This document shows, one piece after another, positions 22,043 through 53,068 of a DNA stretch of 64,000 nt (the stretch's first letter is position 1; each line of letters starts with the position of its first letter). Under the pieces are notes generated by a model. It saw only the letters and a program-made list of their open reading frames with translations, had not been told where the DNA came from and did no database searches. Location of the stretch: positions 40,474 to 104,473 of the forward strand of contig JAPHEE010000001.1 in assembly GCA_029259545.1 (NCBI GenBank), given 5' to 3'. The stretch comes from Candidatus Alkanophaga volatiphilum. Its GTDB lineage: Archaea > Halobacteriota > Syntropharchaeia > Alkanophagales > B39-G2. A program made the position numbers and the translations under genes.

Positions 22043-22933
22043 ATGAAGCTCCAATACGACTGCATACCCTGCCTTTTCGACAGGGCGAAATTCGAGTGCG
22101 ACCTTGCGTTTGGGAAGGGGAACGAAGAAGCCAAGAAGAGGGCGCTGAGGGAACTTCTCGTGTTTTTGCTGGAGCATTACGAGGACGCCCCGCCGTCGCT
22201 CGTCGGCACGCAGCGCGAGCGCATCATACAGAAATTCAGCCGTAGGGACGTGTTTTCTGAGATAAAGGAGAGGAGTTACCGAACTGCGCTCGAGATCCTG
22301 CCGGCGGCTGTGGAGTTTTACAAGAGCAGCGAGGACAAGCTCGAAGCCCTGATGAGGATAGCGGCGGCGGCGAACTCCATGGAGTACGGTGTCAAAGATC
22401 ACCGCTTCGACGACGAGACTTTCAAAAGAGAGTTTCGCAGCGTGCTTTCCGAGAAGCTGAATTCGAACCTTGTGGAGATAAGGGGGGCGTTCGAGCGTTA
22501 CGACAGGGTTTTGTACCTGACGGACAACGCCGGCGAGATAATATTTGACGTTTTCGTGGCGAACGCCCTTGAGGGCATGGGGAAGCGTGTGGTGCTCTCG
22601 CCGAAGAGCGCGCCGGTGCTGAACGATGCGACCGCGGACGAGCTTCGCAGCTACGAGGCGGAGCTGCGGCGACGTGGGCTGAAAATCCCGGAGGTCGTGC
22701 CGAGCGGCGCGTGCATCGGCGTCTGCTTGGAGGAGGCGGATGAGGCGTTCCTGAAAATTTTCTGGGACGACAGCTTTTTGATACTTGCGAAGGGCATGGG
22801 CAACTACGAGGCGCTCTCGGAGTTTGATGAGAAGCTTGAAGGCAGGCTGATATACGTTTTCAGGGCGAAGTGCGAGCCCGTCGCAAGGAGCGTCGGCGTG
22901 CGGCGGGGCGAGCTCGTGGCGAGGCTCGTCTAG
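22043..22933 (+). CDS. DUF89 / damage-control phosphatase (ARMT1-like)
   Basis: MKLQYDCIPCLFDRA N-terminus and a DNAGEIIFD motif. Confidence 0.7.
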   Translation: MKLQYDCIPCLFDRAKFECDLAFGKGNEEAKKRALRELLVFLLEHYEDAPPSLVGTQRERIIQKFSRRDVFSEIKERSYRTALEILPAAVEFYKSSEDKLEALMRIAAAANSMEYGVKDHRFDDETFKREFRSVLSEKLNSNLVEIRGAFERYDRVLYLTDNAGEIIFDVFVANALEGMGKRVVLSPKSAPVLNDATADELRSYEAELRRRGLKIPEVVPSGACIGVCLEEADEAFLKIFWDDSFLILAKGMGNYEALSEFDEKLEGRLIYVFRAKCEPVARSVGVRRGELVARLV

Positions 22934-25929: not shown

Positions 25930-26045
25930 AGGCGCGTTTCTTTTGCTCGTGCTTGGTTTGCGGTTATGCGGGGGCTCCATATAAAGCTTTTCACTCGCAT
26001 CGTCGGTTCCCGCCCCCATATATAAAGAACCTAGACTCTCTTCGC
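25930..26045 (-). promoter_or_regulatory. CRISPR leader with two TATA-like boxes
   Basis: The minus strand reads GGTTCTTTATATATGG ... AAGCTTTATATGG ... GCGCCT and then the first repeat. It is homologous to 62935-63041. Confidence 0.6.
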
Positions 26046-26502
26046 ACGGCTTTCTCTGCGTTTACGGGCGTCACACCGAGTTTTCCACGACTTCAGCGAG
26101 TTCGTGGGGGGGAGCGTCCGGTGCGACTCCGCCCGCCAGCCTTAAACCGTCGCTCTGGGCATTTTTCACACCGCCCCGCAAGTTCGTATTACCGGCGTGA
26201 CGATCCCAGATGCCATCTTGGCGGGTTTCCCGCAAATTCGCCGGTTTTGCGTCCGCCCCTTTGATAAACAGTAGTTTTACGCGGGGATTAAAGTATGAGG
26301 TTTCGTCGTCGGTATTGCAGAGCTCATGAGAGGGGCAAGAAACACATTTCCAGCTTAGACTTCTACTTCGGCGGTGATCCGCATAAGGATGAAAATCTGG
26401 GGAAGTGGAAAACAGACCAAGGTTAGCTCCCTAGCTGTAGACTGCCAAAGCGACGGGACGTTGCGCTGAAGAGCGGCTCTTGCCACACCTGTCCTGAGGA
26501 CT

Positions 26503-26977
26503 TTACGCCCCCTCAACGCTGATAGTTTCAGGCGTCACCATCCACAGCAGCGACCATTTCCCCTCTTCGCCTCGCTCCAAGCAAACGACGCCTGCTATTT
26601 TAAACTTTATTGGCTCTACGTCGTCCTTTCCGGTAAGAAGGAGCTTGCGAGCTTGCTGAGGTGCGGGAGGTGTCCCACGAGCATTATATCCTCGTCGGCA
26701 TTTCGCAACCGTCCAGCCCAGACCTTCAGGTCAGCTAGGGCTCCAGTGTATCGGTTTGCTCCACGCCTTTCGGAGGCTTTAGCGCGTCAGCCATGATTTC
26801 AGCGGTCTGTACTGCTCTCAATTTCCCACTGTGCAAAATCCGCTCGACACGAACAAATTTTGAAACGTAATTAGCTACCTTCTTTGCATCTTCCTTCCCT
26901 TTGTCGGTCAGCGGGCGGGCAGGGTCTTCCGCCCCGCTCCTCGCCTCCCCATGTTGAGCCGAATACACCCGCACCAT
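26503..26977 (-). pseudogene. SixA-like phosphohistidine phosphatase with two frameshifts
   Basis: MVRVYSAQHGEA...LEP stops at 26735. A second frame gives ADLKVW...IMLVGHLPHLSKLAS. A third frame gives LLLTGKDDVEPIKFKIAGVVCLERGEEGKWSLLWMVTPE. Confidence 0.55.
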
Positions 26978-27002: not shown

Positions 27003-27887
27003 TTATCGCTTGAGTGAGTCAAGAACACGCTCGTAAAGCTTCAAGAACTCAGCTCTCCACTCTTCCAGCTCTGAAGCGAAAGGCACCCCCTTCGAATACA
27101 GCCTTGCGATTTCAGGGTCGAGAGGTATTTTCATCAGGATTTCAATGTCTTCCTGCGTGCAGAATTCCTCTATTAGGGCATCACCCTCACCGCTCTTGTT
27201 AAGAACGACGGCAAACGGGATTCCCAGCTTATTTAGCGTATCTACCGCCAGCTTCAGGTCATATAAGCCGAAAGGCGTCGGCTCTGTGACAAGGATGCAG
27301 AAATCACTGCCGAGGACTGAGAAGATCATGGGGCATGCCGTGCCGGGCGGGGCGTCCACGATTATGGCGTGCTGAACGGACGCCGCCTTCCGCACAGCCT
27401 TTATTACAGGCACGGGCATAGGCTCACCGACGTTAAGTTCGCCGTAGGCGACGAAAATCTCTCCGCCATTGACGTGAGCAAGCCCCTTCTTCACGACACC
27501 CACCGCCCGCTCGTCCTCGATGATTGCGTTCCGCTCGCATACGATGGCGCAGCCGCCGCAGCCGTGGCAGAGCTGTGGGAAGACGAGGACGTCGCCGCTC
27601 ACGTTGCGCTCTGGCACGGGACGCACCACGAAAAGCGCATTGAACTCGCAAAACTTTGAGCATGCGCCGCAGAAGTCGCAACGTTCCTTTAAAATCCTCG
27701 GCGTCTTTATGCAGACTGTTTTGGTCTCAATAATTTCGGGCTTTAAGAAAAGGGCAACATTCGGCTCTTCTACGTCACAGTCAAGTAACGCAACGTTCTC
27801 GCCGGCTGAAGAAAGCGAGAGTGCAAGATTAACAGCGACCGTAGTTTTCCCAGTACCTCCCTTCCCGCTCGCCACTGAGATTATCAT
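27003..27887 (-). CDS. MinD/CooC-superfamily P-loop ATPase with inserted 4Fe-4S ferredoxin domain (COG1149-like)
   Basis: SGKGGTGKTT Walker A plus CDFCGACSKFC and CHGCGGCAIVC clusters. Confidence 0.8.
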   Translation of the reverse strand: MIISVASGKGGTGKTTVAVNLALSLSSAGENVALLDCDVEEPNVALFLKPEIIETKTVCIKTPRILKERCDFCGACSKFCEFNALFVVRPVPERNVSGDVLVFPQLCHGCGGCAIVCERNAIIEDERAVGVVKKGLAHVNGGEIFVAYGELNVGEPMPVPVIKAVRKAASVQHAIIVDAPPGTACPMIFSVLGSDFCILVTEPTPFGLYDLKLAVDTLNKLGIPFAVVLNKSGEGDALIEEFCTQEDIEILMKIPLDPEIARLYSKGVPFASELEEWRAEFLKLYERVLDSLKR

Positions 27888-28351
27888 CAGAAGTGCCAGA
27901 AGTGGCGCTCATTCCCGTGTCCGTGCCCATGCCTATGCTCCCTGCAGGTGTCCATTTCAGAAGCTTCCTTAAGCATTCTGGTTTGGAAGTCCCGTATGGC
28001 GTCCCTGACGGTGCCACTTGCGCCGACATAAACCTCGATGCCAAATTGTCGGAACATCGCAAGTGCTTTCGGACCTAAACCTTTACATAAGACTACAGAG
28101 ACGCCTTTCTCTGCTAGAATCTCGGGCGGGTATCCGGAGCCGCCGAAATGCTCGCTGTAATTTTGCAGGACTTCCACGTCGCCTGTTTCTAGATCCACAA
28201 TGGTGAACGTCGGCGCCCTGCCGAAGTGCTCGCAGACGAGGTCGTCGAGTCCCCCTCTGTATGTAGGGACTGCGACTCTGAACTTCGGGCGGTACGCTCT
28301 CGCCATAAGCTCTTGCAATTTCCTTTTGCGAATTGCCTCAAGTTCGTCCAT
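27887..28351 (-). CDS. NifX/NifB-C-terminal-like (dinitrogenase FeMo-cofactor-binding fold) protein with His-rich tail
   Basis: HFGRAPTFTIVDLETG motif. The C-terminal sequence is REHRHGHGHGNERH. Confidence 0.7.
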   Translation of the reverse strand: MDELEAIRKRKLQELMARAYRPKFRVAVPTYRGGLDDLVCEHFGRAPTFTIVDLETGDVEVLQNYSEHFGGSGYPPEILAEKGVSVVLCKGLGPKALAMFRQFGIEVYVGASGTVRDAIRDFQTRMLKEASEMDTCREHRHGHGHGNERHFWHF

Positions 28352-28386
28352 AGCTCTAAAATAAGAAGGGGGAAAATAAAAAAAAG

Positions 28387-28764
28387 TTACTTTTGAAGCT
28401 CTTCAAGTCGCTTCTTTATCTGCGACAGCGCTTCTTCAAGGGATTTCGCCTGCGCCTCGAGCATTGCGATTTCTTGCTCCCTGCTCATCGGCGGTGGTGA
28501 CCAGAGCGGCTGCGGTGGCGTTGCGGTCGGTGGTGTTGCCGTTGCGGTTGGTGGTGTTGTCGGGGGCGTCGTAGGCGCTGGGAACTGCGTCTGCAGGTAA
28601 GAGAGAAACTGCGGAAGCTGTCCAGTTTGCAGGATGTAGCCTGCCGCTGGCGGAAGTCCTGTTGGGCTTCTGCCGAGCCAGCCCGGCGAGAAGCCAAACC
28701 GCAGCCAGCCTGGAAGTCCAGTCAGTCTAAACATCCATCTCCAGCCGTAGCCCATCCGCATCAC
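28387..28764 (-). CDS. DUF5320-like protein (aromatic/Gly head, Pro/Thr linker, C-terminal coiled coil)
   Basis: MGYGWRWMFRL...TPPTTPPTATATPP...SREQEIAMLEAQAKSLEEALSQIKKRLEELQK. An AAGGAGGTG SD lies upstream. The real start may be ATG 28755. Confidence 0.6.
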   Translation of the reverse strand: MMRMGYGWRWMFRLTGLPGWLRFGFSPGWLGRSPTGLPPAAGYILQTGQLPQFLSYLQTQFPAPTTPPTTPPTATATPPTATPPQPLWSPPPMSREQEIAMLEAQAKSLEEALSQIKKRLEELQK

Positions 28765-28794
28765 CTCCTTTCAGTTTAGTTTATCTTGCTTGGC

Positions 28795-28980
28795 TTACCA
28801 GTACCACCATGGCGTCCACATCCACGCCCACGGCAGGCGGTACGGGTAGTACGCCGCCCACCAGCGCCAGCCGTAGTAGTAGGGCGTCCACCAGTACGCC
28901 CACCAGGGCCACCAGTAGGGCATCCACCACGGGAAGAGGAACCAGCCGAGGGGTCCGAGCCCGAACGGCACCTCCACCAC
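28795..28980 (-). CDS. Trp/Tyr-rich micro-protein (61 aa, 18 W, 9 Y)
   Basis: GGGAGGTGG SD and a GTG start 5 nt after the upstream stop. No coiled-coil tail. Coding status is inferred from operon packing only. Confidence 0.5.
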   Translation of the reverse strand: MVEVPFGLGPLGWFLFPWWMPYWWPWWAYWWTPYYYGWRWWAAYYPYRLPWAWMWTPWWYW

Positions 28981-28984
28981 CTCC

Positions 28985-29197
28985 CTACTCTTTTAACTCC
29001 TTAAGCCTCCTCTCGATCTCCTCCAGTCTCGCTTCGAGCGCTGCCTTCTCGCTTTCCAGCATTCGTATCTCGTCCTCCTTGCTCAACGCCCCTGGGGGAC
29101 CCCACGTCCACAGCCACGTCCACGGCTGCCACCACGGCTGCCACCACGACGAGAACCACCACGGCGATGCCCACCACCATGGAAGCCACGGTGGCAT
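28985..29197 (-). CDS. Trp-rich head + DUF5320-like coiled-coil tail micro-protein (70 aa)
   Basis: 14 W in the first 32 residues, then SKEDEIRMLESEKAALEARLEEIERRLKELKE. A TAGGAGGTGG SD lies 7 nt upstream of the ATG. Confidence 0.6.
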   Translation of the reverse strand: MPPWLPWWWASPWWFSSWWQPWWQPWTWLWTWGPPGALSKEDEIRMLESEKAALEARLEEIERRLKELKE

Positions 29198-29210
29198 TTT
29201 TAACCACCTC

Positions 29211-29402
29211 CTACACCGCCCTAACCATGGGGGTTCCGCACTTCGGGCAGGTCATCTGCCGGCACGGCACGCCACGCTGGTGCGGGATGCGATGCCCACA
29301 GTTCGGGCACTCGCACTCGCCGCTGGGTCCACGACCCATACCGCCCCAGCCTCCGCCGCCTCTGCCAGCACCCCTGCCCATGCCTGCGCCACGTCCTGCC
29401 AT
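29211..29402 (-). CDS. G/R-rich head + zinc-ribbon micro-protein (63 aa)
   Basis: MAGRGAGMGRGAGRGGGGWGGMGRG followed by CPNCG...CPKCG. A GGAGGTGG SD is present, and the ATG lies 1 nt after the upstream stop. Confidence 0.55.
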   Translation of the reverse strand: MAGRGAGMGRGAGRGGGGWGGMGRGPSGECECPNCGHRIPHQRGVPCRQMTCPKCGTPMVRAV

Positions 29403-29403
29403 G

Positions 29404-29571
29404 TTACCACCTCCAGTCTACAATACGGCGTCCCCGTCCTTTTCGCCTTACGGCTGCGAAGGCTGCAGTCGCATCTCGCATCCAGCGGCGCGGCGCCGGC
29501 ATCAGACCTGCCCACATGCCGCCATATTGCCCGCGCCTCCTGCACCTGCCTCTTCCCATATTTCCTCGCAT
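29404..29571 (-). CDS. possible G/R-rich micro-protein (55 aa, below ORF-track cutoff)
   Basis: Hand-translated as MRGNMGRGRCRRRGQYGGMWAGLMPAPRRW.... The SD is weak (GAAAGGG). It fills the gap between neighbouring ORFs exactly. Confidence 0.3.
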   Translation of the reverse strand: MRGNMGRGRCRRRGQYGGMWAGLMPAPRRWMRDATAAFAAVRRKGRGRRIVDWRW

Positions 29572-29581
29572 CCCTTTCACA

Positions 29582-29746
29582 TTACCACCACCAGTAGGTC
29601 CACCACGCTGAGGGCATCCACGGCGTTATCGGACCGTAAATGCCGGTCCACCACCAGCGCGGCAACCACGGGAACCACCGGCAGAACGGGAATGGGTTGC
29701 CACGCCAGCCCCAACCTCGCCACCAACCTCTACCCCATGGGGGCAT
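29582..29746 (-). CDS. Trp-rich micro-protein (54 aa, 16 W; below ORF-track cutoff)
   Basis: Hand-translated as MPPWGRGWWRGWGWRGNPFPFCRWFPWLPRWWWTGIYGPITPWMPSAWWTYWWW. An AAGGAGGTGG SD overlaps the upstream stop. Confidence 0.5.
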   Translation of the reverse strand: MPPWGRGWWRGWGWRGNPFPFCRWFPWLPRWWWTGIYGPITPWMPSAWWTYWWW

Positions 29747-29758
29747 GACACCACCTCC

Positions 29759-30415
29759 TTAGCTCTTTAACCTTCTTATCATGTCCTTAACTTCTTTCAA
29801 CTCTTTTTCAAGCCTCTCAATCCGCTCTCTCAGCTCTTGCATGTCAGTTTGCGGCGGCTCGCCGCTCGCCATCGCGGTGGCGCGCCATCCCCCTCTGCGC
29901 CAGCCCTTGCCGCCCCCTCCAAAGCCTGGACCGAAAGCTGGCGGCACCGGCGACGTGAGTGGTGGCATCCAAGTTTGTGGCGGTGTGGGCGGCTGAGCTG
30001 ATGGCGTTTTTATCGTCGCTGATTGCGGCATTGAAGGCGGCGACGCGCCGAAGCTCATGCCGAAGTGCGGGGCGACTGTGGCACCGCCCGCCTCCCTGAG
30101 CTCGCCACGCTTGAACATCTCGACGGCGTCCTTGACGGTGCCGTGCGCGCCTGTAAAAACTCTTATGCCCGCCGCTGAGAGCGTTTGAAAGGCGTTGGGT
30201 CCGACATTTCCGGTGATGACAGCTTCGACGCCGAGACTCACTACGGTCTGCGCAGCCTGAATGCCGGCGCCGCCGGGGGCGTCGGCGCTCTCGTTACGGA
30301 CGGCTTCAAACTCCATGGTCTCAGAGTCCACAATCACGAAATACTGGCAGCGTCCGAACCTTGGATCGACTTGCGCGTCCAGACCATCCGAAGTTGCGGT
30401 CACGCACACCCTCAC
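29759..30415 (-). CDS. NifX-like domain fused to a DUF5320-like Pro/Gly linker and coiled-coil tail
   Basis: GTG 30415 gives MRVCVTATSDG...RFGRCQYFVIVD. The C-terminus is GFGGGGKGWRRGGWR...DMQELRERIERLEKELKEVKDMIRRLKS. Alternative ATG starts exist at 30445 and upstream. Confidence 0.65.
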   Translation of the reverse strand: MRVCVTATSDGLDAQVDPRFGRCQYFVIVDSETMEFEAVRNESADAPGGAGIQAAQTVVSLGVEAVITGNVGPNAFQTLSAAGIRVFTGAHGTVKDAVEMFKRGELREAGGATVAPHFGMSFGASPPSMPQSATIKTPSAQPPTPPQTWMPPLTSPVPPAFGPGFGGGGKGWRRGGWRATAMASGEPPQTDMQELRERIERLEKELKEVKDMIRRLKS

Positions 30416-30731
30416 GTTTCCCCCCACTAATGAATATAAATTCATAACATAAAAAGGTGACGCAAGGCGATGCTTGTGTTGCATACAAGCTTTTATGCCA
30501 GACCTTGCGCGCGCCTCGATGGCGGTCCCTTGCCGGGGCTGCATGAGAACAGCAGCTCTTGTCGTGCCGCTCGCCGTGCCAGCTCTGATCTTCTTTGGCA
30601 TCGCCGCTGCGGGATTATATATTCTCATTCAAACCGTCGTGGACGCAGCGGCGCCCGACGGTAGATGGTCGTCGGGGACGGCATTTATACGAGAAGGTCC
30701 AGAAAACCGCATTGTCCAAGCTGTGAGCCCT

Positions 30732-30831
30732 GAAGACGTCTCAGCAGACCTCGTGACCACTACAGTTAGTCCAAGAGGGGGTGCTGAAAAGAGAAAAGGG
30801 AAGACGTCTCAGCAGACCTCGTGACCACTAC
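30732..30831 (+). repeat. CRISPR-like mini-array: 2 x 32-nt direct repeat with a 36-nt spacer
   Basis: GAAGACGTCTCAGCAGACCTCGTGACCACTAC occurs at 30732-30763 and 30800-30831. The 68-nt period equals the period of the main array. An ATTTATAC TATA-like box lies ~45 nt upstream. Confidence 0.5.
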
Positions 30832-31049
30832 GGCTTCACCGTGAAAGGCACCTCCTTGCTTGGTCTTTCTGACCTGCCTCCGCCTAGGCGAGGTTCCCGA
30901 CACGGGACGGGCGGGCTTGCGGAGACGCATCGGCTCGGTCAGGAGCCGTCCGGTCAGCATTTAGCTGACCGAATCATCGAAAAATTAGGAGAGGGAATAA
31001 AATGTTTCGGGGGCTTCCTCCCCCTAGAGGCTTCCAGCCCGCAAGGAGT

Positions 31050-31250
31050 GTGACCTCCTCCCTCGCTCAGCAAGGGGCTTCCCGGGGGAGGTTGGGAGGT
31101 GTGCCGTGCCTCCGGCTCGGCACGCAGCCCCGCCGAAGGATATACCCACGGCTCGTTCCGAACTCACATTATCTTCGGAAAATTAACTGCCTCCAACCCC
31201 CTAATCATCCCGCCCCCTCAGGACGAGCCCTCTTAGCGACTGAAGGTAAA
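31050..31250 (+). mobile_element. MITE-like structured interspersed repeat, copy B (internally shortened)
   Basis: It shares the 5' end GTGACCTCCTCCCTCGCTCAGCAAGGGGCTTCC, the core GGATATACCCACGGC and the 3' end CTCTTAGCGACTGAAGGTAAA. Confidence 0.65.
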
Positions 31251-31534
31251 TCGATAGCTAGCCCCACAAAATGAACGAGGGCTAACCCGCATCTCTTAAG
31301 AATTATCGTCTCCCGCACAAGCCTCTGGTCGAAATCTTAACGGGCAAGGAAGCAGGCGACTTCAATGCTTATTTAGCATCACGTTGAGCAGCGGCGGTGT
31401 CGCAGACCGGTAATATCCCAGCGAATCCCCTATTGACGACACCATTGACGCCTCCCCGCAGGCTTCGAAAGTACCGCCCCTCCATTGCGGCTCCCTGCCT
31501 CCAGAGCTCATTTGGAGCAGAGTAGTGTATTACC

Positions 31535-31670
31535 TTTACAAAATGTCGCTACGAAAGCTCCCCACTTCAGTAGGGAGATGAAGTAGGGGTGGGTGGGAAA
31601 AGTTTTATACTTAAAACCTGAGGCGGGGAGGCTTAAAGTGAAGCCCCGCCTCCGGTCGGGAGAGGCTCAC
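31535..31670 (-). repeat. MITE-like repeat, partial copy I (3' module)
   Basis: The reverse complement reads AAGTATAAAACTTTTCCCACCCACCCCTACTTCATCTCCCTACTGAAGTGGGGAGCTTTCGTAGCGACATTTTGTAAA. This matches the 3' modules of copies A and C. Confidence 0.5.
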
Positions 31671-31800
31671 GATCCAGAGGCGCTCCGATTCATAAATGAA
31701 AACGCAGGTACTGACGATTGGTGGCCATAGGCGTCTTCAGCGCTTATTTTATTATCCCAAGCTCCAGCCTCGCCTCCAACCTTCCTCAGAACACCTTAAG

Positions 31801-32670
31801 TTACACTCTTAGTGTCGCTTCCAAGCACTCCCACACCCTTTTCATCTCAATGGCAGCTGGCGAGCGTGGCGAGCATTCCACGACCGGCTTCCCCATCGCC
31901 AGCGCCCGCATCACCGCCACGTCGTACGGAACCCTGCCGACCACCTCCACGCCCTCCGCCTCGCAGAACCTTTCCATCTCGACCGCCATTTCCGCATTCA
32001 AGTCGTATCTGTTTATGCAGACGAATGGGCGTACGTTGAAGTGTCGAGCCAGCCGGAGTACACGCTCCAAGTCGTGAAGCCCGCTGACCGTAGGCTCCGT
32101 CACGATCAATGCGGCGTCGACGCCGCTGAGTGTGGAGATGACTGGACACCCGATGCCCGGCGGCCCATCTATTAGTATCAAGCGGCAAGCCTCCCGCTCT
32201 GCGACGCTCAATGCGTTTTGCCGCACCACCGTCACGAGCTTTCCGGAATTCTCCTCCGCCGCATTTAGAACGGCGTGCGACAAGAAACCGTACTTCGTCC
32301 TTGAGAGGAACACATAACCCGAAACCTTTTCTTGCAGCGTTATTGCTTTTTCAGGGCACACGACAACGCAGACGCCGCACCCCTCACATAAAATTTCGTC
32401 CACCTCTCCCTTCTCTATCGCATCAAATCTACAAAACTCCTCACATCTCCCGCAGGCGGTGCATTTTTCTCCGTCCACCACCGCCACCTTTGCGCCCCGA
32501 AACTCCTCCCGTCTTAGAACTTCGGGCTTCAGAATGAGATGCAAGTCCGGGGCGTCAACGTCGCAGTCTGCCAGCACTTTGCGCTCAGCCAACGCTGCAA
32601 ACACCGCTACTATTGAAGTTTTGCCGGTGCCGCCCTTCCCGCTGACCACCGCAAGCTGCCGTATGCTCAT
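31801..32670 (-). CDS. MinD/CooC-superfamily P-loop ATPase with inserted ferredoxin domain, second paralogue
   Basis: SGKGGTGKTS Walker A plus CTACGRCEEFC and CEGCGVCVVVCP. Confidence 0.8.
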   Translation of the reverse strand: MSIRQLAVVSGKGGTGKTSIVAVFAALAERKVLADCDVDAPDLHLILKPEVLRREEFRGAKVAVVDGEKCTACGRCEEFCRFDAIEKGEVDEILCEGCGVCVVVCPEKAITLQEKVSGYVFLSRTKYGFLSHAVLNAAEENSGKLVTVVRQNALSVAEREACRLILIDGPPGIGCPVISTLSGVDAALIVTEPTVSGLHDLERVLRLARHFNVRPFVCINRYDLNAEMAVEMERFCEAEGVEVVGRVPYDVAVMRALAMGKPVVECSPRSPAAIEMKRVWECLEATLRV

Positions 32671-52752: not shown

Positions 52753-53068
52753 GGGTGCGGGCTAGCCCGGGGGGCTCGGCGTCCCCTGTGACCCGAAACC
52801 GTCGATATGCGGGGGGCGAAGCTCGAGGGCGGCTTCCGCTTGCCGTCGCGTCACGCAGGGCTTAACGGTGAGGCATCGTCCTGCGGGGCCGCCGTTGGCG
52901 TGGCGGCTGGCTGGAGGGCCGGTCGTGCGCCTTTGCCGCGGGCACCGGTTTAGGCCCGGAAGGGAGCAGACCCACCGTGGGCGGTCGGCGCTCGTGGGGT
53001 AGCGGTGCTGAGCGACGCCCTGTGGCGGCGTTGCGGCAATGAAGCCCACCGAGAGCGTGCCCGCACCC
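52753..53068 (+). ncRNA. signal recognition particle RNA (archaeal 7S RNA)
   Basis: 316 nt. 5' GGGTGCGGGC pairs with 3' GCCCGCACCC. The conserved helix-8 motif AGGCCCGGAAGGGAGCAG is present. A TTTATTT box lies ~25 nt upstream and a T-tract lies downstream. Confidence 0.85.

What the first reader, a model, noticed from the sequence alone, without database searches (positions are those of the whole stretch)
28795..29746. Cluster of extremely tryptophan-rich micro-proteins inside a NifX / MinD-ferredoxin operon
Three minus-strand ORFs are extremely rich in Trp:
- 29582-29746 (54 aa, found by hand because it is under the track cutoff) has 16 Trp.
- 28985-29197 (70 aa) has 14 Trp in its first 32 residues and then a clean heptad coiled coil.
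- 28795-28980 (61 aa) has 18 Trp and 9 Tyr.

Each ORF is preceded by a GGAGGTG(G) Shine-Dalgarno site. Each starts no more than 13 nt after the upstream stop, so the packing looks like a translated operon rather than chance.

I know of no characterised protein family with this composition. Trp has a single codon, so this composition must be maintained by selection at the protein level.

Possible roles are pure speculation: aromatic stacking or electron hopping, membrane-interface peptides, or scaffolds for the neighbouring cofactor-binding proteins.
Basis: partly seen in the sequence, partly recalled or inferred. Interest (0 to 1): 0.85.

Follow-up and report, generated by a model that had tools for sequence, protein, structure and literature searches.

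The report
Tryptophan-packed DUF5320 peptides, iron-sulfur operon
Three tiny genes in a heat-loving archaeon really do encode peptides that are 20-31% tryptophan; they are extreme, selection-maintained offshoots of an uncharacterised small-protein family (DUF5320) that travels with iron-sulfur-handling genes, and probably act as sticky disordered "tails" in an iron-sulfur storage or trafficking assembly.

Summary
Three minus-strand ORFs, W1 (29582-29746), W2 (28985-29197) and W3 (28795-28971, start revised), carry 16, 14 and 18 Trp. Each has a GGAGGTG Shine-Dalgarno site and lies 12-13 nt after the upstream stop.

They are genuine genes.
- Across phyla, W1's core motif changes almost only at synonymous sites.
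- dN/dS is 0.16 (W1), 0.07 (W2) and 0.13 (W3). The antisense 262-aa ORF gives 0.67.

"No characterised family" is only partly right.
- W2 passes Pfam's DUF5320 threshold.
- W1 is the most Trp-rich member of a rare family of 135 cluster representatives built on CRxFPWxPRxWW. Other members carry DUF5320 tails or are fused to 2x[4Fe-4S] ferredoxins.
- W3 is a tail-less member of the MPFGLGPLGWF subtype of DUF5320.

The operon resembles the Orange-Protein (ORP) complex and IssA: NifX-like proteins, MinD-ferredoxin ATPases and a Gly/Arg zinc ribbon. Relatives found by sequence alone sit next to Fur or DtxR.

The best reading, which is inferred, is that these are free-standing versions of the Trp/Gly/Arg-rich IssA tail. 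They would bind anionic Fe-S material or glue the assembly together. DUF5320 itself has never been studied experimentally.

Verdict: a new, extreme variant of a known but uncharacterised kind. Interest 0.6.

The parts
29582..29746 (-). W1: 54-aa peptide, 16 Trp (30%), pI 11.4, five Arg and no acidic residues, one invariant Cys. It carries the conserved motif GNPFPFCRWFPWLPRWWWTGIYGPITP.
   Evidence: ORF and counts. Family of 28 word-index hits and 135 cluster representatives. Invariant C22 R23 F25 P26 W27 P29 R30 W32 W33. Synonymous-site pattern across 10 DNA versions. dN/dS 0.16 against Ca. A. liquidiphilum.
29752..29758 (-). Shine-Dalgarno GGAGGTG for W1, immediately after the TAA stop of the NifX-tail gene and 5 nt before the ATG.
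   Evidence: Read from the sequence. Conserved in the sister lineage and in A. liquidiphilum.
29404..29580 (-). RG: Arg-rich 58-aa ORF (15 Arg, pI 12.0), starting 1 nt after the W1 stop. A probable gene, less certain than the others.
   Evidence: In-frame 6-nt insertion in the sister lineage. An Arg-rich 42-aa ORF lies at the same position in A. liquidiphilum, but only 35 aa align (dN/dS 0.18).
29211..29402 (-). Zn: 63-aa protein with a Gly/Arg-rich N-terminus and a C-terminal Cys-rich zinc ribbon (6 Cys). It is a core member of this gene cluster.
   Evidence: Pfam zinc-ribbon hits. NCBIfam rubrerythrin-like domain, E = 0.001. The same protein is present in 35 of 80 distant syntenic loci, usually with an MPRGDGTGP...GRG N-terminus. 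dN/dS 0.17.
28985..29197 (-). W2: 70-aa DUF5320 member. The uncharged Trp block (14 Trp in residues 1-32) is built from 12-nt and 6-nt tandem units, and is followed by a heptad coiled-coil tail.
   Evidence: PF17253 at 28.4 bits, above the cut-off of 27. Tandem units. The sister lineage has a 30-nt in-frame deletion inside the repeats. dN/dS 0.07, 9 of 9 aligned Trp kept, Fisher p = 2.6e-6. It is the most Trp-rich of 92 DUF5320-tail ORFs in 64 loci.
28795..28971 (-). W3: 58-aa peptide (start revised to the GTG at 28971), 18 Trp and 9 Tyr (52% aromatic), two Arg and no acidic residues. The N-terminus MPFGLGPLGWF belongs to a DUF5320 subtype, and there is no coiled-coil tail.
   Evidence: dN/dS 0.13, 16 of 16 aligned Trp kept, compensating in-frame indels. 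The N-terminal 15-25 residues are 60-80% identical to Pfam-positive DUF5320 proteins L010, L058 and P0035. A tailed relative is in L100, and tail-less relatives are in L099 and L102.
28978..28984 (-). Shine-Dalgarno GGAGGTG for W3, directly after the W2 stop (TAG, 28985-28987) and 6 nt before the GTG at 28971.
   Evidence: Read from the sequence. An equivalent GGAGGTG lies 7 nt before the GTG in the sister lineage.
29759..30415 (-). First gene of the operon: a NifX-type (Nitro_FeMo-Co) domain, then a Pro-rich linker, a Gly/Arg/Trp patch (GFGGGGKGWRRGGWR) and a DUF5320-like coiled coil. The layout is IssA-like.
   Evidence: PF02579 at 96 bits and DUF5320 at 22 bits, below the cut-off. Tail composition. 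The start follows from the frameshifts upstream in the sister lineage. The same NifX+DUF5320 fusion is seen in L091, L092 and L093.
28387..28755 (-). A more typical DUF5320 protein (122 aa from the ATG at 28755): MGYGWRWMFRLTGLPGW..., a Pro/Thr-rich linker and a coiled-coil tail.
   Evidence: PF17253 at 24 bits, just under the cut-off. 86% identical to the A. liquidiphilum orthologue, dN/dS 0.06.
27887..28351 (-). Single-domain NifX-like protein (Orp8 / orange-protein type).
   Evidence: PF02579 at 89.5 bits. Partial match to NCBIfam MrpORP. ORP literature.
27003..27887 (-). MinD/ParA-type P-loop ATPase with an inserted 2x[4Fe-4S] ferredoxin domain (Orp3/Orp4 type). Last gene of the operon.
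   Evidence: Pfam ParA, CbiA and Fer4. 595 relatives in public genomes, with 80 syntenic loci fetched.
31801..32670 (-). Second MinD-ferredoxin ATPase paralogue, 1.3 kb upstream. Probably a separate transcription unit of the same system.
   Evidence: Pfam CbiA, ParA and Fer4. Paired MinD-Fer4 genes also occur in L093 and in the Desulfovibrio ORP system (Orp3 and Orp4).

Best explanation
W1, W2 and W3 are real, co-transcribed and translationally coupled small proteins. They are Trp-maximised offshoots of the DUF5320 family. Each carries one module of the full-length architecture seen in other archaea:
- W3 has the N-terminal MPFGLGPLGWF module.
- W1 has the central CRWFPWLPRWWWTGIYGP motif.
- W2 has the aromatic block plus the coiled coil.

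They belong to a widespread gene cluster of anaerobes: NifX-like cluster-binding proteins, MinD-type ATPases with 2x[4Fe-4S] domains, and a Gly/Arg zinc-ribbon protein. [quoted passage not shown]

Most likely mechanism (inferred): the peptides are intrinsically disordered, aromatic or cationic "tails supplied in trans". Like the Trp/Gly/Arg-rich tail of IssA, they would wrap or cap anionic iron-sulfur material (thioferrate or cluster precursors) held by the NifX-like domains. They would also cross-link the assembly through pi-pi and cation-pi contacts with the Arg/Gly-rich partners (the RG peptide, the zinc-ribbon N-terminus, the NifX tail). W2's coiled coil would add multivalency.

Shown: the genes are coding, purifying selection acts on the Trp frame, family relationships, modularity, and the genomic association with Fe-S and iron-regulation genes.

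Inferred: disorder, binding of Fe-S material, and co-assembly.
For: Coding and selection:
- Changes in the W1 motif across 10 DNA versions from several phyla are synonymous within the core. Nucleotide differences by codon position are 57/42/115. The sense frame keeps 79% aa identity; the other five frames keep 51-66%.
- dN/dS is 0.16 for W1, 0.07 for W2 and 0.13 for W3, with all alignable Trp retained. The antisense ORF gives 0.67.

Family:
- W2 passes PF17253.
- W1-motif proteins carry PF17253 tails.
- L010 and L058 score 34-35 bits and combine the W3 N-terminus, the W1 motif and a tail.
- L100 has a tailed W3-like gene next to a W1-type gene.

Link to Fe-S and iron:
- The operon holds two NifX-like genes and MinD-Fer4 genes, with partial MrpORP matches.
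- P0110 and P0160 fuse the W1 motif to the C-terminus of 2x[4Fe-4S] ferredoxins.
- Of five W1-family genes found by sequence alone, four lie beside DUF5320 genes and three beside NifX+DUF5320 fusions. One overlaps the stop of a Fur gene, and one shares a gene string with a DtxR-type repressor.

Precedent:
- The IssA tail is unstructured and rich in Trp, Gly and Arg. It holds the protein's only Cys and is proposed to wrap anionic thioferrate, stabilised by aromatic contacts. IssA is made only when iron and sulfide are abundant (PMC5524996).
- The host is probably Ca. Alkanophaga, a 70 C sulfidic syntroph.

Disorder:
- AlphaFold on the W1 family alignment gives pLDDT 54.
- Charges are complementary: W1 pI 11.4, RG pI 12.0, and the W2 Trp block is uncharged.
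Against: - No experiment exists on any DUF5320 protein. Only two papers mention the name, both in passing.
- None of the 135 W1-profile hits is a NifX fusion, so the IssA tail does not detectably contain the W1 motif. The resemblance to IssA is compositional and architectural, not demonstrated homology.
- The window's NifX-tail protein fails two of the three operational IssA-clade criteria: pI 6.8, and 2.5% Gly in its last 40 residues.
- W2's Trp block and W3 are almost uncharged, so an electrostatic thioferrate-binding model cannot apply to them directly.
- Native IssA particles contained no other protein, so in-trans tails have no precedent.
- W2 and W3 are absent from the sister species Ca. 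A. liquidiphilum, so they are dispensable for the core function.
- No expression data were found.
Confidence: 0.5

Rival explanations
1. The DUF5320 proteins and Trp peptides are adaptor or activator partners of the MinD/ParA-type ATPases, in the way McdB, MinE or ParB work. Basic N-termini would stimulate the ATPase. Coiled coils would oligomerise the adaptor. Trp-rich segments would bind a cargo, for example an Fe-S granule or the ORP complex, and drive condensate formation. The system would then position or partition that cargo in the cell.
For: - The cluster always includes one or two MinD/ParA-family ATPases.
- ParA/MinD adaptors bind their ATPase through basic N-terminal residues, are disordered with coiled coils, and McdB needs an invariant Trp for cargo binding and condensate formation (bioRxiv 10.1101/2023.11.21.568049).
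- The ORP complex has been linked to cell division, MrpORP is polar, and Orp3 and Orp4 have a MinD-like amphipathic helix (PMC6345978).
- Canonical DUF5320 N-termini are basic (MPRG...GRG), and the tails give weak DivIC-like hits.
Against: - There is no sequence similarity to McdB, MinE or ParB.
- The module order differs. In McdB the Trp is C-terminal and single.
- W1 and W3 have no coiled coil, and W2 and W3 have no basic N-terminus.
- Some W1-family contexts contain no MinD-type gene (L091, L094).
- This model complements the best explanation rather than excluding it.
Confidence: 0.2
2. They are membrane-interface peptides. Trp/Arg/Pro-rich sequences like indolicidin or tritrpticin partition into the lipid interface. 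They could anchor the MinD-like complex to the membrane, or act as toxins or antimicrobials.
For: - The composition (Trp, Pro, Arg; FPWLPRWWW) resembles Trp-rich antimicrobial peptides (my own knowledge of indolicidin ILPWKWPWWPWRR and tritrpticin VRRFPWWWPFLRR; not tested here).
- Trp favours membrane interfaces.
- AlphaFold models W3 as one long hydrophobic helix (pLDDT 77).
- IssA sediments with membranes although it has no membrane signal.
Against: - There are no signal peptides, transporters, immunity genes or secretion genes in the operon or neighbourhood.
- The genomic partners are cytoplasmic Fe-S proteins and iron regulators.
- The W1 motif is fused to soluble ferredoxins and coiled coils.
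- W3 has nine Pro, including an i/i+4/i+8 spacing, so a 46-residue helix is doubtful. The model came from a single sequence with pTM 0.34.
Confidence: 0.07
3. They form redox-active aromatic chains. Dense Trp/Tyr arrays would carry electron or hole hopping between the [4Fe-4S] ATPases and clusters bound to the NifX-like proteins, or protect those clusters from oxidative damage.
For: - 39-52% aromatic residues.
- Neighbours are all Fe-S or cluster-binding proteins.
- OsmC and thioredoxin genes lie near relatives.
Against: - There is no confidently folded structure to hold the side chains in register.
- The rest of the family is far less Trp-rich (median 7%), so a Trp wire cannot be the family's general function.
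- A strict anaerobe has little need for hole-hopping protection.
- Nothing here tests this idea.
Confidence: 0.05
4. They are precursors of ribosomally made, post-translationally modified peptides (RiPPs), with Trp as the site of radical-SAM cross-linking.
For: - Radical-SAM genes lie in two of five independent contexts (L090, L093).
- Radical-SAM enzymes are known to cross-link Trp in some RiPPs (my own knowledge; not tested here).
Against: - There is no radical-SAM gene or other maturase, protease or exporter in or near this operon.
- The peptides have no leader/core layout and are conserved along their whole length.
- The motif occurs fused to ferredoxins and coiled coils.
- A radical-SAM gene next to NifX-like genes is as easily read as a split NifB-type cluster-assembly enzyme.
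Confidence: 0.03
5. They are not genes. The Trp frames would be a by-product of G-rich or TGG-repeat DNA, or of a real gene on the opposite strand (28809-29597 or 29167-29748, plus strand).
For: - Some public gene calls on identical or near-identical DNA choose the antisense 255-aa ORF, or a 97-aa ORF in another frame.
- The antisense ORF stays open in the sister lineage.
- W2 contains short tandem repeats.
Against: - The antisense ORF has dN/dS 0.67 and no family match. The sense frames give 0.07-0.16.
- W1 is conserved at the protein level across archaeal and bacterial phyla, with synonymous codon switching.
- A Shine-Dalgarno site precedes every sense ORF.
- An antisense frame stays open simply because a G-rich sense strand rarely contains TTA, CTA or TCA.
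- The 97-aa ORF overlaps the zinc-ribbon gene, which is conserved in 35 distant loci.
Confidence: 0.01

Closest known systems
DUF5320 (Pfam PF17253), small proteins of unknown function from anaerobic bacteria and archaea
   Same: - W2 scores above the family threshold.
- Full-length proteins that carry W1's motif and W3's N-terminus are Pfam-positive members.
- The genomic context is the same: NifX-like, MinD-Fer4, Gly/Arg zinc ribbon and DUF134 genes.
- The C-terminal heptad tail is the same.
   Different: - Trp content is 20-31%, against a median of 2.7% in DUF5320-tail ORFs of syntenic loci and 7% in the W1-motif family.
- W1 and W3 have no coiled coil and do not hit the Pfam model.
- One protein's modules are spread over three genes.
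- The CRxFPWxPRxWW motif is not captured by any Pfam or NCBIfam model.
C-terminal tail of IssA (PF2025), the thioferrate iron-sulfur storage protein of Pyrococcus furiosus
   Same: - An unstructured segment in which Trp, Gly and Arg are the conserved residues, holding a single Cys, attached to or encoded beside a NifX-type (IPR003731) domain after a Pro-rich linker (PMC5524996).
- The window's first operon gene has that layout.
- Both hosts are thermophilic, sulfide-rich anaerobes.
   Different: - The peptides here are free-standing genes, not a covalent tail.
- No sequence homology to the IssA tail could be shown. I could not retrieve PF2025, and there is no NifX fusion among the W1-profile hits.
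- The local NifX-tail protein is not basic and ends in a coiled coil.
- W2 and W3 lack the cationic character that the IssA model relies on.
Orange Protein (ORP) complex of Desulfovibrio vulgaris (Orp3, Orp4, Orp5, Orp8, MrpORP)
   Same: - Orp3 and Orp4 are MinD-like ATPases with two [4Fe-4S] motifs, and Orp8 is a single-domain NifX-like protein. Both types are present here.
- The cluster is specific to anaerobes.
- Sigma-54 genes lie next to the Omnitrophota relative, matching the sigma-54 control of the orp genes.
   Different: - No DUF5320 or Trp-rich component has been reported for the ORP complex.
- There is no MrpORP fusion here; matches to that model are only partial (34-74 bits against a cut-off of 450).
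- The function of the ORP complex is itself unresolved (cell division or Fe-S metabolism).
McdB-type adaptors of ParA/MinD positioning ATPases
   Same: - Small, disordered, coiled-coil proteins encoded next to a ParA/MinD ATPase.
- A basic N-terminus.
- A functionally essential Trp and cation-pi-driven condensation.
   Different: - No sequence similarity.
- McdB has one invariant C-terminal Trp rather than 14-18.
- The cargo and the order of modules differ.
Trp-rich antimicrobial peptides (indolicidin, tritrpticin)
   Same: Local Trp/Pro/Arg composition. FPWLPRWWW resembles FPWWWPFLRR (from my own knowledge, not tested).
   Different: Those peptides are secreted, 13 residues long and eukaryotic. 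The peptides here are cytoplasmic-type gene products of 54-70 aa with no signal peptide, embedded in an Fe-S operon.

Membership tests
DUF5320 (PF17253) | Whole-protein score at or above Pfam's gathering cut-off (27 bits) | tested here: met
   W2 scores 28.4 bits, E = 3.9e-6, matching model positions 51-99. Its relatives L010 (34.1), L058 (35.5), L052 (94.4) and L070 (59.9 and 34.1) also pass.
DUF5320 (PF17253) | The same cut-off, applied to W1 and W3 | tested here: not met
   Neither has a Pfam hit at E <= 1. They are linked to the family only indirectly. W1's motif and W3's N-terminus occur inside Pfam-positive proteins. I therefore file them as tail-less derivatives or associates, not as formal members.
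DUF5320 (PF17253) | C-terminal heptad coiled-coil tail (...KEQEI..LE.QA..LE..L..IKKRLEEL..) | tested here: met
   Met for W2. A tail HMM built here finds it at E = 2.8e-13 among 92 ORFs in 64 loci. Not met for W1 or W3, which end in Trp-rich sequence.
DUF5320 (PF17253) | Genomic association with NifX-like and MinD-ferredoxin genes | tested here: met
   Window operon. 54 of 80 distant syntenic loci carry a DUF5320-tail ORF.
W1-motif family (not curated; defined here by alignment A1) | Invariant core C-R-x-F-P-W-x-P-R-x-W-W, preceded by GNP[FY]PF and followed by [TS]GIYGP | tested here: met
   W1 has the complete motif. The profile search finds 135 representatives at E <= 1e-3 and 33 at E <= 1e-10 among 1.84 billion. 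98 of the 161 fetched proteins carry the strict core.
IssA clade (operational criteria of Vaccaro et al. 2017) | IPR003731 (NifX-type) globular domain | tested here: met
   The window's 218-aa protein scores 96 bits on PF02579. W1, W2 and W3 have no such domain.
IssA clade (operational criteria of Vaccaro et al. 2017) | pI >= 9, fewer than 5 Cys, and at least 20% Gly in the C-terminal 40 residues (supplement of PMC5524996) | tested here: not met
   The 218-aa protein has pI 6.8, 2 Cys, and 2.5% Gly in its last 40 residues. Its Gly/Arg/Trp patch lies upstream of a coiled coil. So it is IssA-like in layout but not a member by these criteria.
IssA clade (operational criteria of Vaccaro et al. 2017) | Binds thioferrate and forms 20-300 nm Fe-S nanoparticles | not testable with these tools
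   This needs anaerobic biochemistry, X-ray absorption spectroscopy and electron microscopy.
ORP complex (Desulfovibrio type) | Paired MinD-like ATPases with two [4Fe-4S] motifs (Orp3, Orp4) plus a single-domain NifX-like protein (Orp8) | tested here: met
   27003-27887 and 31801-32670 (CbiA, ParA and Fer4), and 27887-28351 (PF02579). Description of the ORP proteins.
ORP complex (Desulfovibrio type) | MrpORP (Mrp/NBP35 domain fused to a NifX-like domain); NCBIfam NF041136 cut-off 450 bits | tested here: not met
   Only partial matches of 34-74 bits from separate proteins. There is no fused MrpORP in the operon.

The most novel reading that the evidence does not exclude
The operon encodes a multi-component, protein-templated iron-sulfur storage body or condensate. 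NifX-like proteins would nucleate anionic Fe-S polymer. A set of free-standing, hyper-aromatic (W1-W3) and hyper-cationic (RG, zinc-ribbon N-terminus) microproteins would coat and cross-link it through cation-pi and pi-pi contacts. The MinD-type Fe-S ATPases would load, unload or position the body, using DUF5320 proteins as their adaptors. This would be an archaeal and bacterial Fe-S organelle system that is more elaborate than homomeric IssA particles. It would also give the widespread DUF5320 / ORP gene cluster of anaerobes its first function.
Probability: 0.2. Interest if true: 0.85.

Novelty: new variant of a known kind. Interest (0 to 1): 0.6.

Why it matters
At 30-31% Trp over 54-58 residues, W1 and W3 are, to my knowledge, among the most tryptophan-rich natural gene products. 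Trp is the costliest and rarest amino acid and has a single codon, and the evidence here shows that selection keeps every one of them.

They give a handle on two open problems.

1. The function of DUF5320 and of the anaerobe-specific ORP-type cluster (NifX-like plus MinD-ferredoxin genes). The cluster is present in hundreds of bacterial and archaeal lineages, yet it has no agreed role.
2. How strict anaerobes in sulfidic, iron-rich habitats store and traffic iron-sulfur material beyond the single IssA example.

The CRxFPWxPRxWW motif is rare, sharply conserved, not curated, and fused to ferredoxins, so it is a concrete target for biochemistry.

There is also a practical point. Public gene callers mis-annotate this locus, calling antisense or out-of-frame ORFs, so such microproteins are systematically missed.

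Tried and rejected
1. Word-index homologue search with W3: no candidate. Relatives were found later through synteny and a DNA-pattern scan.

2. Retrieving P. furiosus IssA (PF2025) for a direct comparison of tails. I used peptide fragments deduced from the published cloning primers. The first query was too short and the second found nothing, which used the last word-index search. The IssA comparison therefore rests on the paper's description alone.

3. The Fievet et al. 2011 ORP paper (PMC3133258) is not held.

4. AlphaFold. The W1 family alignment gave pLDDT 54, so no fold search was run. W3 as a single sequence gave one long helix, which I regard as unreliable given its nine Pro.

5. PDB sequence search with the W1 profile: only noise, E = 0.25.

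6. My early idea that W1's RWWWTGIYGP is a variant of the canonical DUF5320 ATGLPGW motif. Rejected, because P0055, P0065, P0080 and P0094 carry both motifs.

7. The idea that W2 and W3 are a simple split of one L010-type gene. Rejected, because the gene order is wrong (tail-bearing W2 comes before N-terminal-type W3) and the two are not similar to each other.

8. Expression data in the supplements of the Ca. Alkanophaga paper: no entries for these genes.

9. Rfam, for an RNA explanation of the locus or of the upstream gap: nothing above threshold.

10. The sigma-70 promoter and terminator scan is not informative for an archaeon.


Full report
**1. What is there**

On the minus strand of window 27003-30415 lies a tightly packed gene string:
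- a NifX-type domain protein with a Pro-rich linker, a Gly/Arg/Trp patch and a coiled coil (29759-30415)
- W1 (29582-29746)
- an Arg-rich ORF, "RG" (29404-29580)
- a Gly/Arg zinc-ribbon protein (29211-29402)
- W2 (28985-29197)
- W3 (28795-28971)
- a more typical DUF5320 protein (28387-28755)
- a single-domain NifX-like protein (27887-28351)
- a MinD/ParA ATPase with an inserted 2x[4Fe-4S] domain (27003-27887)

A second MinD-ferredoxin gene lies 1.3 kb upstream (31801-32670).

W1, W2 and W3 contain 16, 14 and 18 Trp, that is 30%, 20% and 31%. The background in the window's long ORFs is 0.66%. The chance probabilities are 1e-17 to 1e-25, and still 1e-8 to 1e-14 if the local T*G*G frequency is used. 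The two densest TGG stretches in all six frames of the 64 kb are these loci. Every small gene is preceded by GGAGGTG 4-7 nt from its start. W1, W2 and W3 start 12-13 nt after the upstream stop; RG and Zn start 1 nt after it.

**2. Source organism**

The window carries an archaeal SRP RNA. Contigs identical to it, and a sister lineage about 94% identical, come from public metagenomes. The closest named relative of the operon is Candidatus Alkanophaga liquidiphilum. Its assemblies belong to the same ENA sample series as the window's own contigs. I infer that the window is from Ca. Alkanophaga, probably the second species of the 70 C alkane-oxidising Guaymas Basin enrichments (PMC10322722). That species assignment was not tested directly.

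**3. Are they genes? Yes.**

(a) W1's core motif was found in 10 distinct DNA versions, from Alkanophaga, Methanocellaceae, Methanophagales, Bathyarchaeia, Nitrososphaeria and a bacterium. Inside the core almost all nucleotide changes are synonymous: Arg CGG/AGG/AGA, Leu TTG/CTG/CTC/CTT, and all four Pro codons. Differences by codon position are 57/42/115. The Trp frame keeps 79% amino-acid identity, against 51-66% for the other five frames.

(b) Against Ca. A. liquidiphilum, W1 has dN/dS 0.16. That is in the range of its conserved neighbours (0.06-0.17).

(c) Against the sister lineage, W2 has pS 0.32 and pN 0.027 (dN/dS 0.07). W3 has pS 0.24 and pN 0.037 (dN/dS 0.13). All alignable Trp are retained (9/9 and 16/16). 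Indels are in frame: a 30-nt deletion in W2, and a 9-nt insertion plus a 9-nt deletion in W3. Fisher tests give p = 2.6e-6, 1.4e-3 and 1.8e-4 for W2, W3 and W1.

(d) The competing 262-aa antisense ORF has dN/dS 0.67 (p = 0.13) and no family match. It stays open only because a G-rich sense strand rarely contains the complements of stop codons.

Public gene callers disagree on identical DNA. Some call the antisense ORF, or a 97-aa out-of-frame ORF. The latter overlaps the zinc-ribbon gene, which is conserved in 35 distant loci.

**4. What are they?**

W2 passes Pfam's threshold for DUF5320 (28.4 against 27 bits).

W1 has no Pfam or NCBIfam hit, but it belongs to a sharply conserved family:
- The word-index search found 28 proteins.
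- The exhaustive profile search found 135 cluster representatives among 1.84 billion, 33 of them at E <= 1e-10.
- The invariant residues are C22, R23, F25, P26, W27, P29, R30, W32 and W33.
- Members occur in many archaeal and bacterial phyla. Some carry the DUF5320 coiled-coil tail and the PF17253 annotation.
- Two members are 2x[4Fe-4S] ferredoxins with a GRG linker and the motif as a C-terminal tail (P0110, P0160).
- The window's W1 is the most Trp-rich of them all: 30%, then Alkanophaga liquidiphilum at 23%, with a family median of 7%.

W3's N-terminus, MPFGLGPLGWF, marks a DUF5320 subtype. In L010, L058 and P0035 one protein of 82-101 aa combines this N-terminus, the W1 motif and the coiled coil, and L010 and L058 are Pfam-positive. 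L100 has an 84-aa W3-like protein with a tail next to a W1-type gene. L099 and L102 have tail-less aromatic versions.

With composition-corrected BLAST, W3 residues 1-25, W1 residues 22-43 and W2 residues 4-70 map onto the N-terminus, the centre, and the aromatic region plus tail of such proteins. W1, W2 and W3 are not significantly similar to each other. So the window spreads the modules of one family over three genes, each padded with Trp.

W2's Trp block is made of 12-nt (WQPW) and 6-nt (TW) tandem units, and it changes by slippage.

W2 and W3 are absent from Ca. A. liquidiphilum. That species keeps W1, the Arg-rich ORF, the zinc ribbon and the DUF5320 gene. Full-length W3 was found only in the window's own lineage and its sister lineage in the metagenome scan.

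Hyper-Trp peptides have arisen separately in Desulfobacterota versions of the cluster: 44 aa with 13 Trp in L052, and 52 aa with 16 Trp in L070. Recurrent enrichment suggests that the Trp content itself is functional.

**5. Context and what it implies**

Among 80 distant loci fetched through the MinD-ferredoxin gene, 54 carry a DUF5320-tail ORF, 35 carry the Gly/Arg zinc ribbon and 9 carry the W1 motif.

The neighbours correspond to the anaerobe-specific Orange Protein (ORP) complex of Desulfovibrio. Orp3 and Orp4 are MinD-like with two [4Fe-4S] motifs, and Orp8 is NifX-like. MrpORP delivers Fe-S clusters to them (PMC6345978).

Five W1-family genes that were found by sequence alone give an unbiased test:
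- Four lie beside DUF5320 genes.
- Three lie beside NifX+DUF5320 fusions of 185-198 aa.
- One overlaps the stop of a Fur gene by 4 nt (Omnitrophota).
- One shares a gene string with a DtxR-type iron repressor and a ferredoxin (Thermoplasmatales).
- DUF134, thioredoxin and OsmC genes recur.

Together with the ferredoxin fusions, this ties the motif to iron and Fe-S metabolism.

Nothing near the window operon suggests RiPP maturation, secretion or Trp-dependent attenuation.

**6. Mechanism**

The best precedent is IssA of Pyrococcus furiosus (PMC5524996):
- It has a NifX-type domain, a Pro-rich linker and an unstructured tail.
- In that tail, Trp, Gly and Arg are the conserved residues, and the tail holds the protein's only Cys.
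- The tail is proposed to wrap anionic thioferrate, with aromatic contacts stabilising the wrap.
- IssA is made only when iron and sulfide are abundant.
- It forms 20-300 nm particles and can rebuild ferredoxin's [4Fe-4S] cluster.

The window's first gene has this layout plus a coiled coil. I therefore propose that W1-W3 are tails supplied in trans.
- W1 is cationic and carries one Cys (pI 11.4).
- W2's Trp block and W3 are uncharged and hyper-aromatic.
- They would pair with very cationic partners: RG (pI 12.0), the zinc-ribbon N-terminus and the NifX tail patch.
- AlphaFold gives no confident fold for the W1 family (pLDDT 54), which is consistent with disorder or ligand-dependent folding.
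- The single-sequence helix predicted for W3 is doubtful, because W3 has nine Pro.

What is shown: the genes are coding, selection acts on the Trp frame, the family relationships, the modularity, and the association with Fe-S and iron genes.

What is inferred: disorder, binding of Fe-S material, and co-assembly.

Caveats:
- No homology to the IssA tail was demonstrated.
- The local NifX-tail protein fails two of the three operational IssA criteria.
- Native IssA particles are homomeric.
- W2 and W3 are dispensable in a sister species.
- No DUF5320 protein has ever been studied.

**7. Rivals**

The strongest rival, which partly complements the best explanation, is that DUF5320 proteins are adaptors of the MinD/ParA ATPases, as McdB is for carboxysomes. 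Such adaptors have a basic N-terminus, a coiled coil, and a Trp needed for cargo binding and condensation.

Membrane-interface peptides, aromatic electron-hopping chains and RiPP precursors are less likely, for the reasons listed under rival explanations. The non-coding or antisense reading is rejected.

**8. Novelty and score**

DUF5320 is a known Pfam family with no known function, and a Trp/Gly/Arg tail has been described for IssA. The kind is therefore not new. What is new:
- the extreme, selection-maintained Trp content in free-standing microproteins
- the uncurated CRxFPWxPRxWW motif and its ferredoxin fusions
- the links to Fur and DtxR
- the distribution of one family's modules over three genes

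I rate this a new variant of a known kind, with interest 0.6. Confidence:
- about 0.95 that these are real DUF5320-related proteins
- about 0.6 that they act in iron or Fe-S handling
- about 0.3 for the specific IssA-tail-like mechanism

The overall figure of 0.5 for the combined statement reflects this mix.

Noticed in passing
window 30416-31800: A 1.3-kb stretch with no convincing ORF between the upstream MinD-ferredoxin gene and the operon start. It contains two perfect 32-nt direct repeats (GAAGACGTCTCAGCAGACCTCGTGACCACTAC, at 30732-30763 and 30800-30831) separated by a 36-nt spacer, which is CRISPR-like geometry. The repeat occurs nowhere else in the window. Rfam gives only sub-threshold hits: HgcC at 30856-30950 (23.7 bits) and CRISPR-DR20 at 30642-30681. 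The ORFs there have no Pfam match. In Ca. A. liquidiphilum (L089) a Cas12f/TnpB fragment sits at the equivalent place.
   Followed up: partly
window 28795-29197 (W2-W3 cassette) compared with L001 5190-5565: Synonymous divergence from the sister lineage is 0.24-0.32 in W2 and W3 but only 0.02-0.08 in all flanking genes, while dN/dS stays low. This is a local divergence hotspot. It could reflect allelic replacement by recombination, or mutation-prone TGG repeats. The cassette is missing altogether from Ca. A. liquidiphilum.
   Followed up: partly
L001-L006, gene calls over the region equivalent to window 28795-29750: Public gene predictions on identical or near-identical DNA disagree. Some call the small Trp ORFs. 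Others call a 255-aa antisense ORF, or a 97-aa out-of-frame ORF that overlaps the conserved zinc-ribbon gene. Microproteins of this composition are being mis-annotated in databases.
   Followed up: yes
window 29759-30628: The 289-aa ORF listed for the NifX gene is over-extended. The sister lineage has 6-nt, 2-nt and 1-nt indels upstream of about 30415 that break the extension. The real product is about 218 aa, starting MRVCVTATSDG at the GTG at 30415. An AT-rich TATA-like element (TTTATATT) lies about 30 nt upstream.
   Followed up: partly
L092 3546-4231; L090 4001-5745: In an Omnitrophota contig a Fur gene overlaps the start of the W1-family gene by 4 nt, with sigma-54 and a sigma-54 activator just upstream. 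In a Thermoplasmatales contig the W1-family gene shares a gene string with a ferredoxin and a split DtxR-type iron repressor.
   Followed up: partly
proteins P0110 (169 aa) and P0160 (138 aa): 2x[4Fe-4S] ferredoxin domains fused through a GRG-rich linker to the W1 motif (GRGNPYPFCRFYRWLPRRWW). The motif behaves as a tail module on Fe-S proteins.
   Followed up: yes
L052 7707-8170 (minus strand); L070 2327-3124: Apparently independent hyper-Trp peptides occur in Desulfobacterota versions of the cluster. L052 has a 44-aa peptide with 13 Trp next to a 102-aa DUF5320 protein with 12 Trp. L070 has a 52-aa peptide with 16 Trp, followed by 84-aa and 114-aa DUF5320 proteins with 12 and 11 Trp. All have Shine-Dalgarno sites.
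   Followed up: partly
window 29211-29402 and 35 distant loci: The Gly/Arg zinc-ribbon protein (...C.CP.CG...PHQ.G.PC....CP.CG..M.R) is a conserved, uncurated core member of the cluster. Its usual N-terminus, MPRGDGTGP...GRG, is the same module that opens canonical DUF5320 proteins. It has six Cys and a weak rubrerythrin-like hit, so it might bind iron rather than zinc.
   Followed up: partly
window 25950-26700: Another stretch with only short ORFs on both strands and no Rfam or Pfam match. Not examined further.
   Followed up: no
window 52755-53066 and 712-783: An archaeal SRP RNA (190 bits) and a tRNA. These establish that the window is archaeal.
   Followed up: no
window 22043-22933; L092 6899-7807: An ARMT1-like damage-control phosphatase gene lies about 4 kb from the operon in the window, and directly after the MinD-type gene in the Omnitrophota cluster. 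This may be coincidence or a loose association.
   Followed up: no
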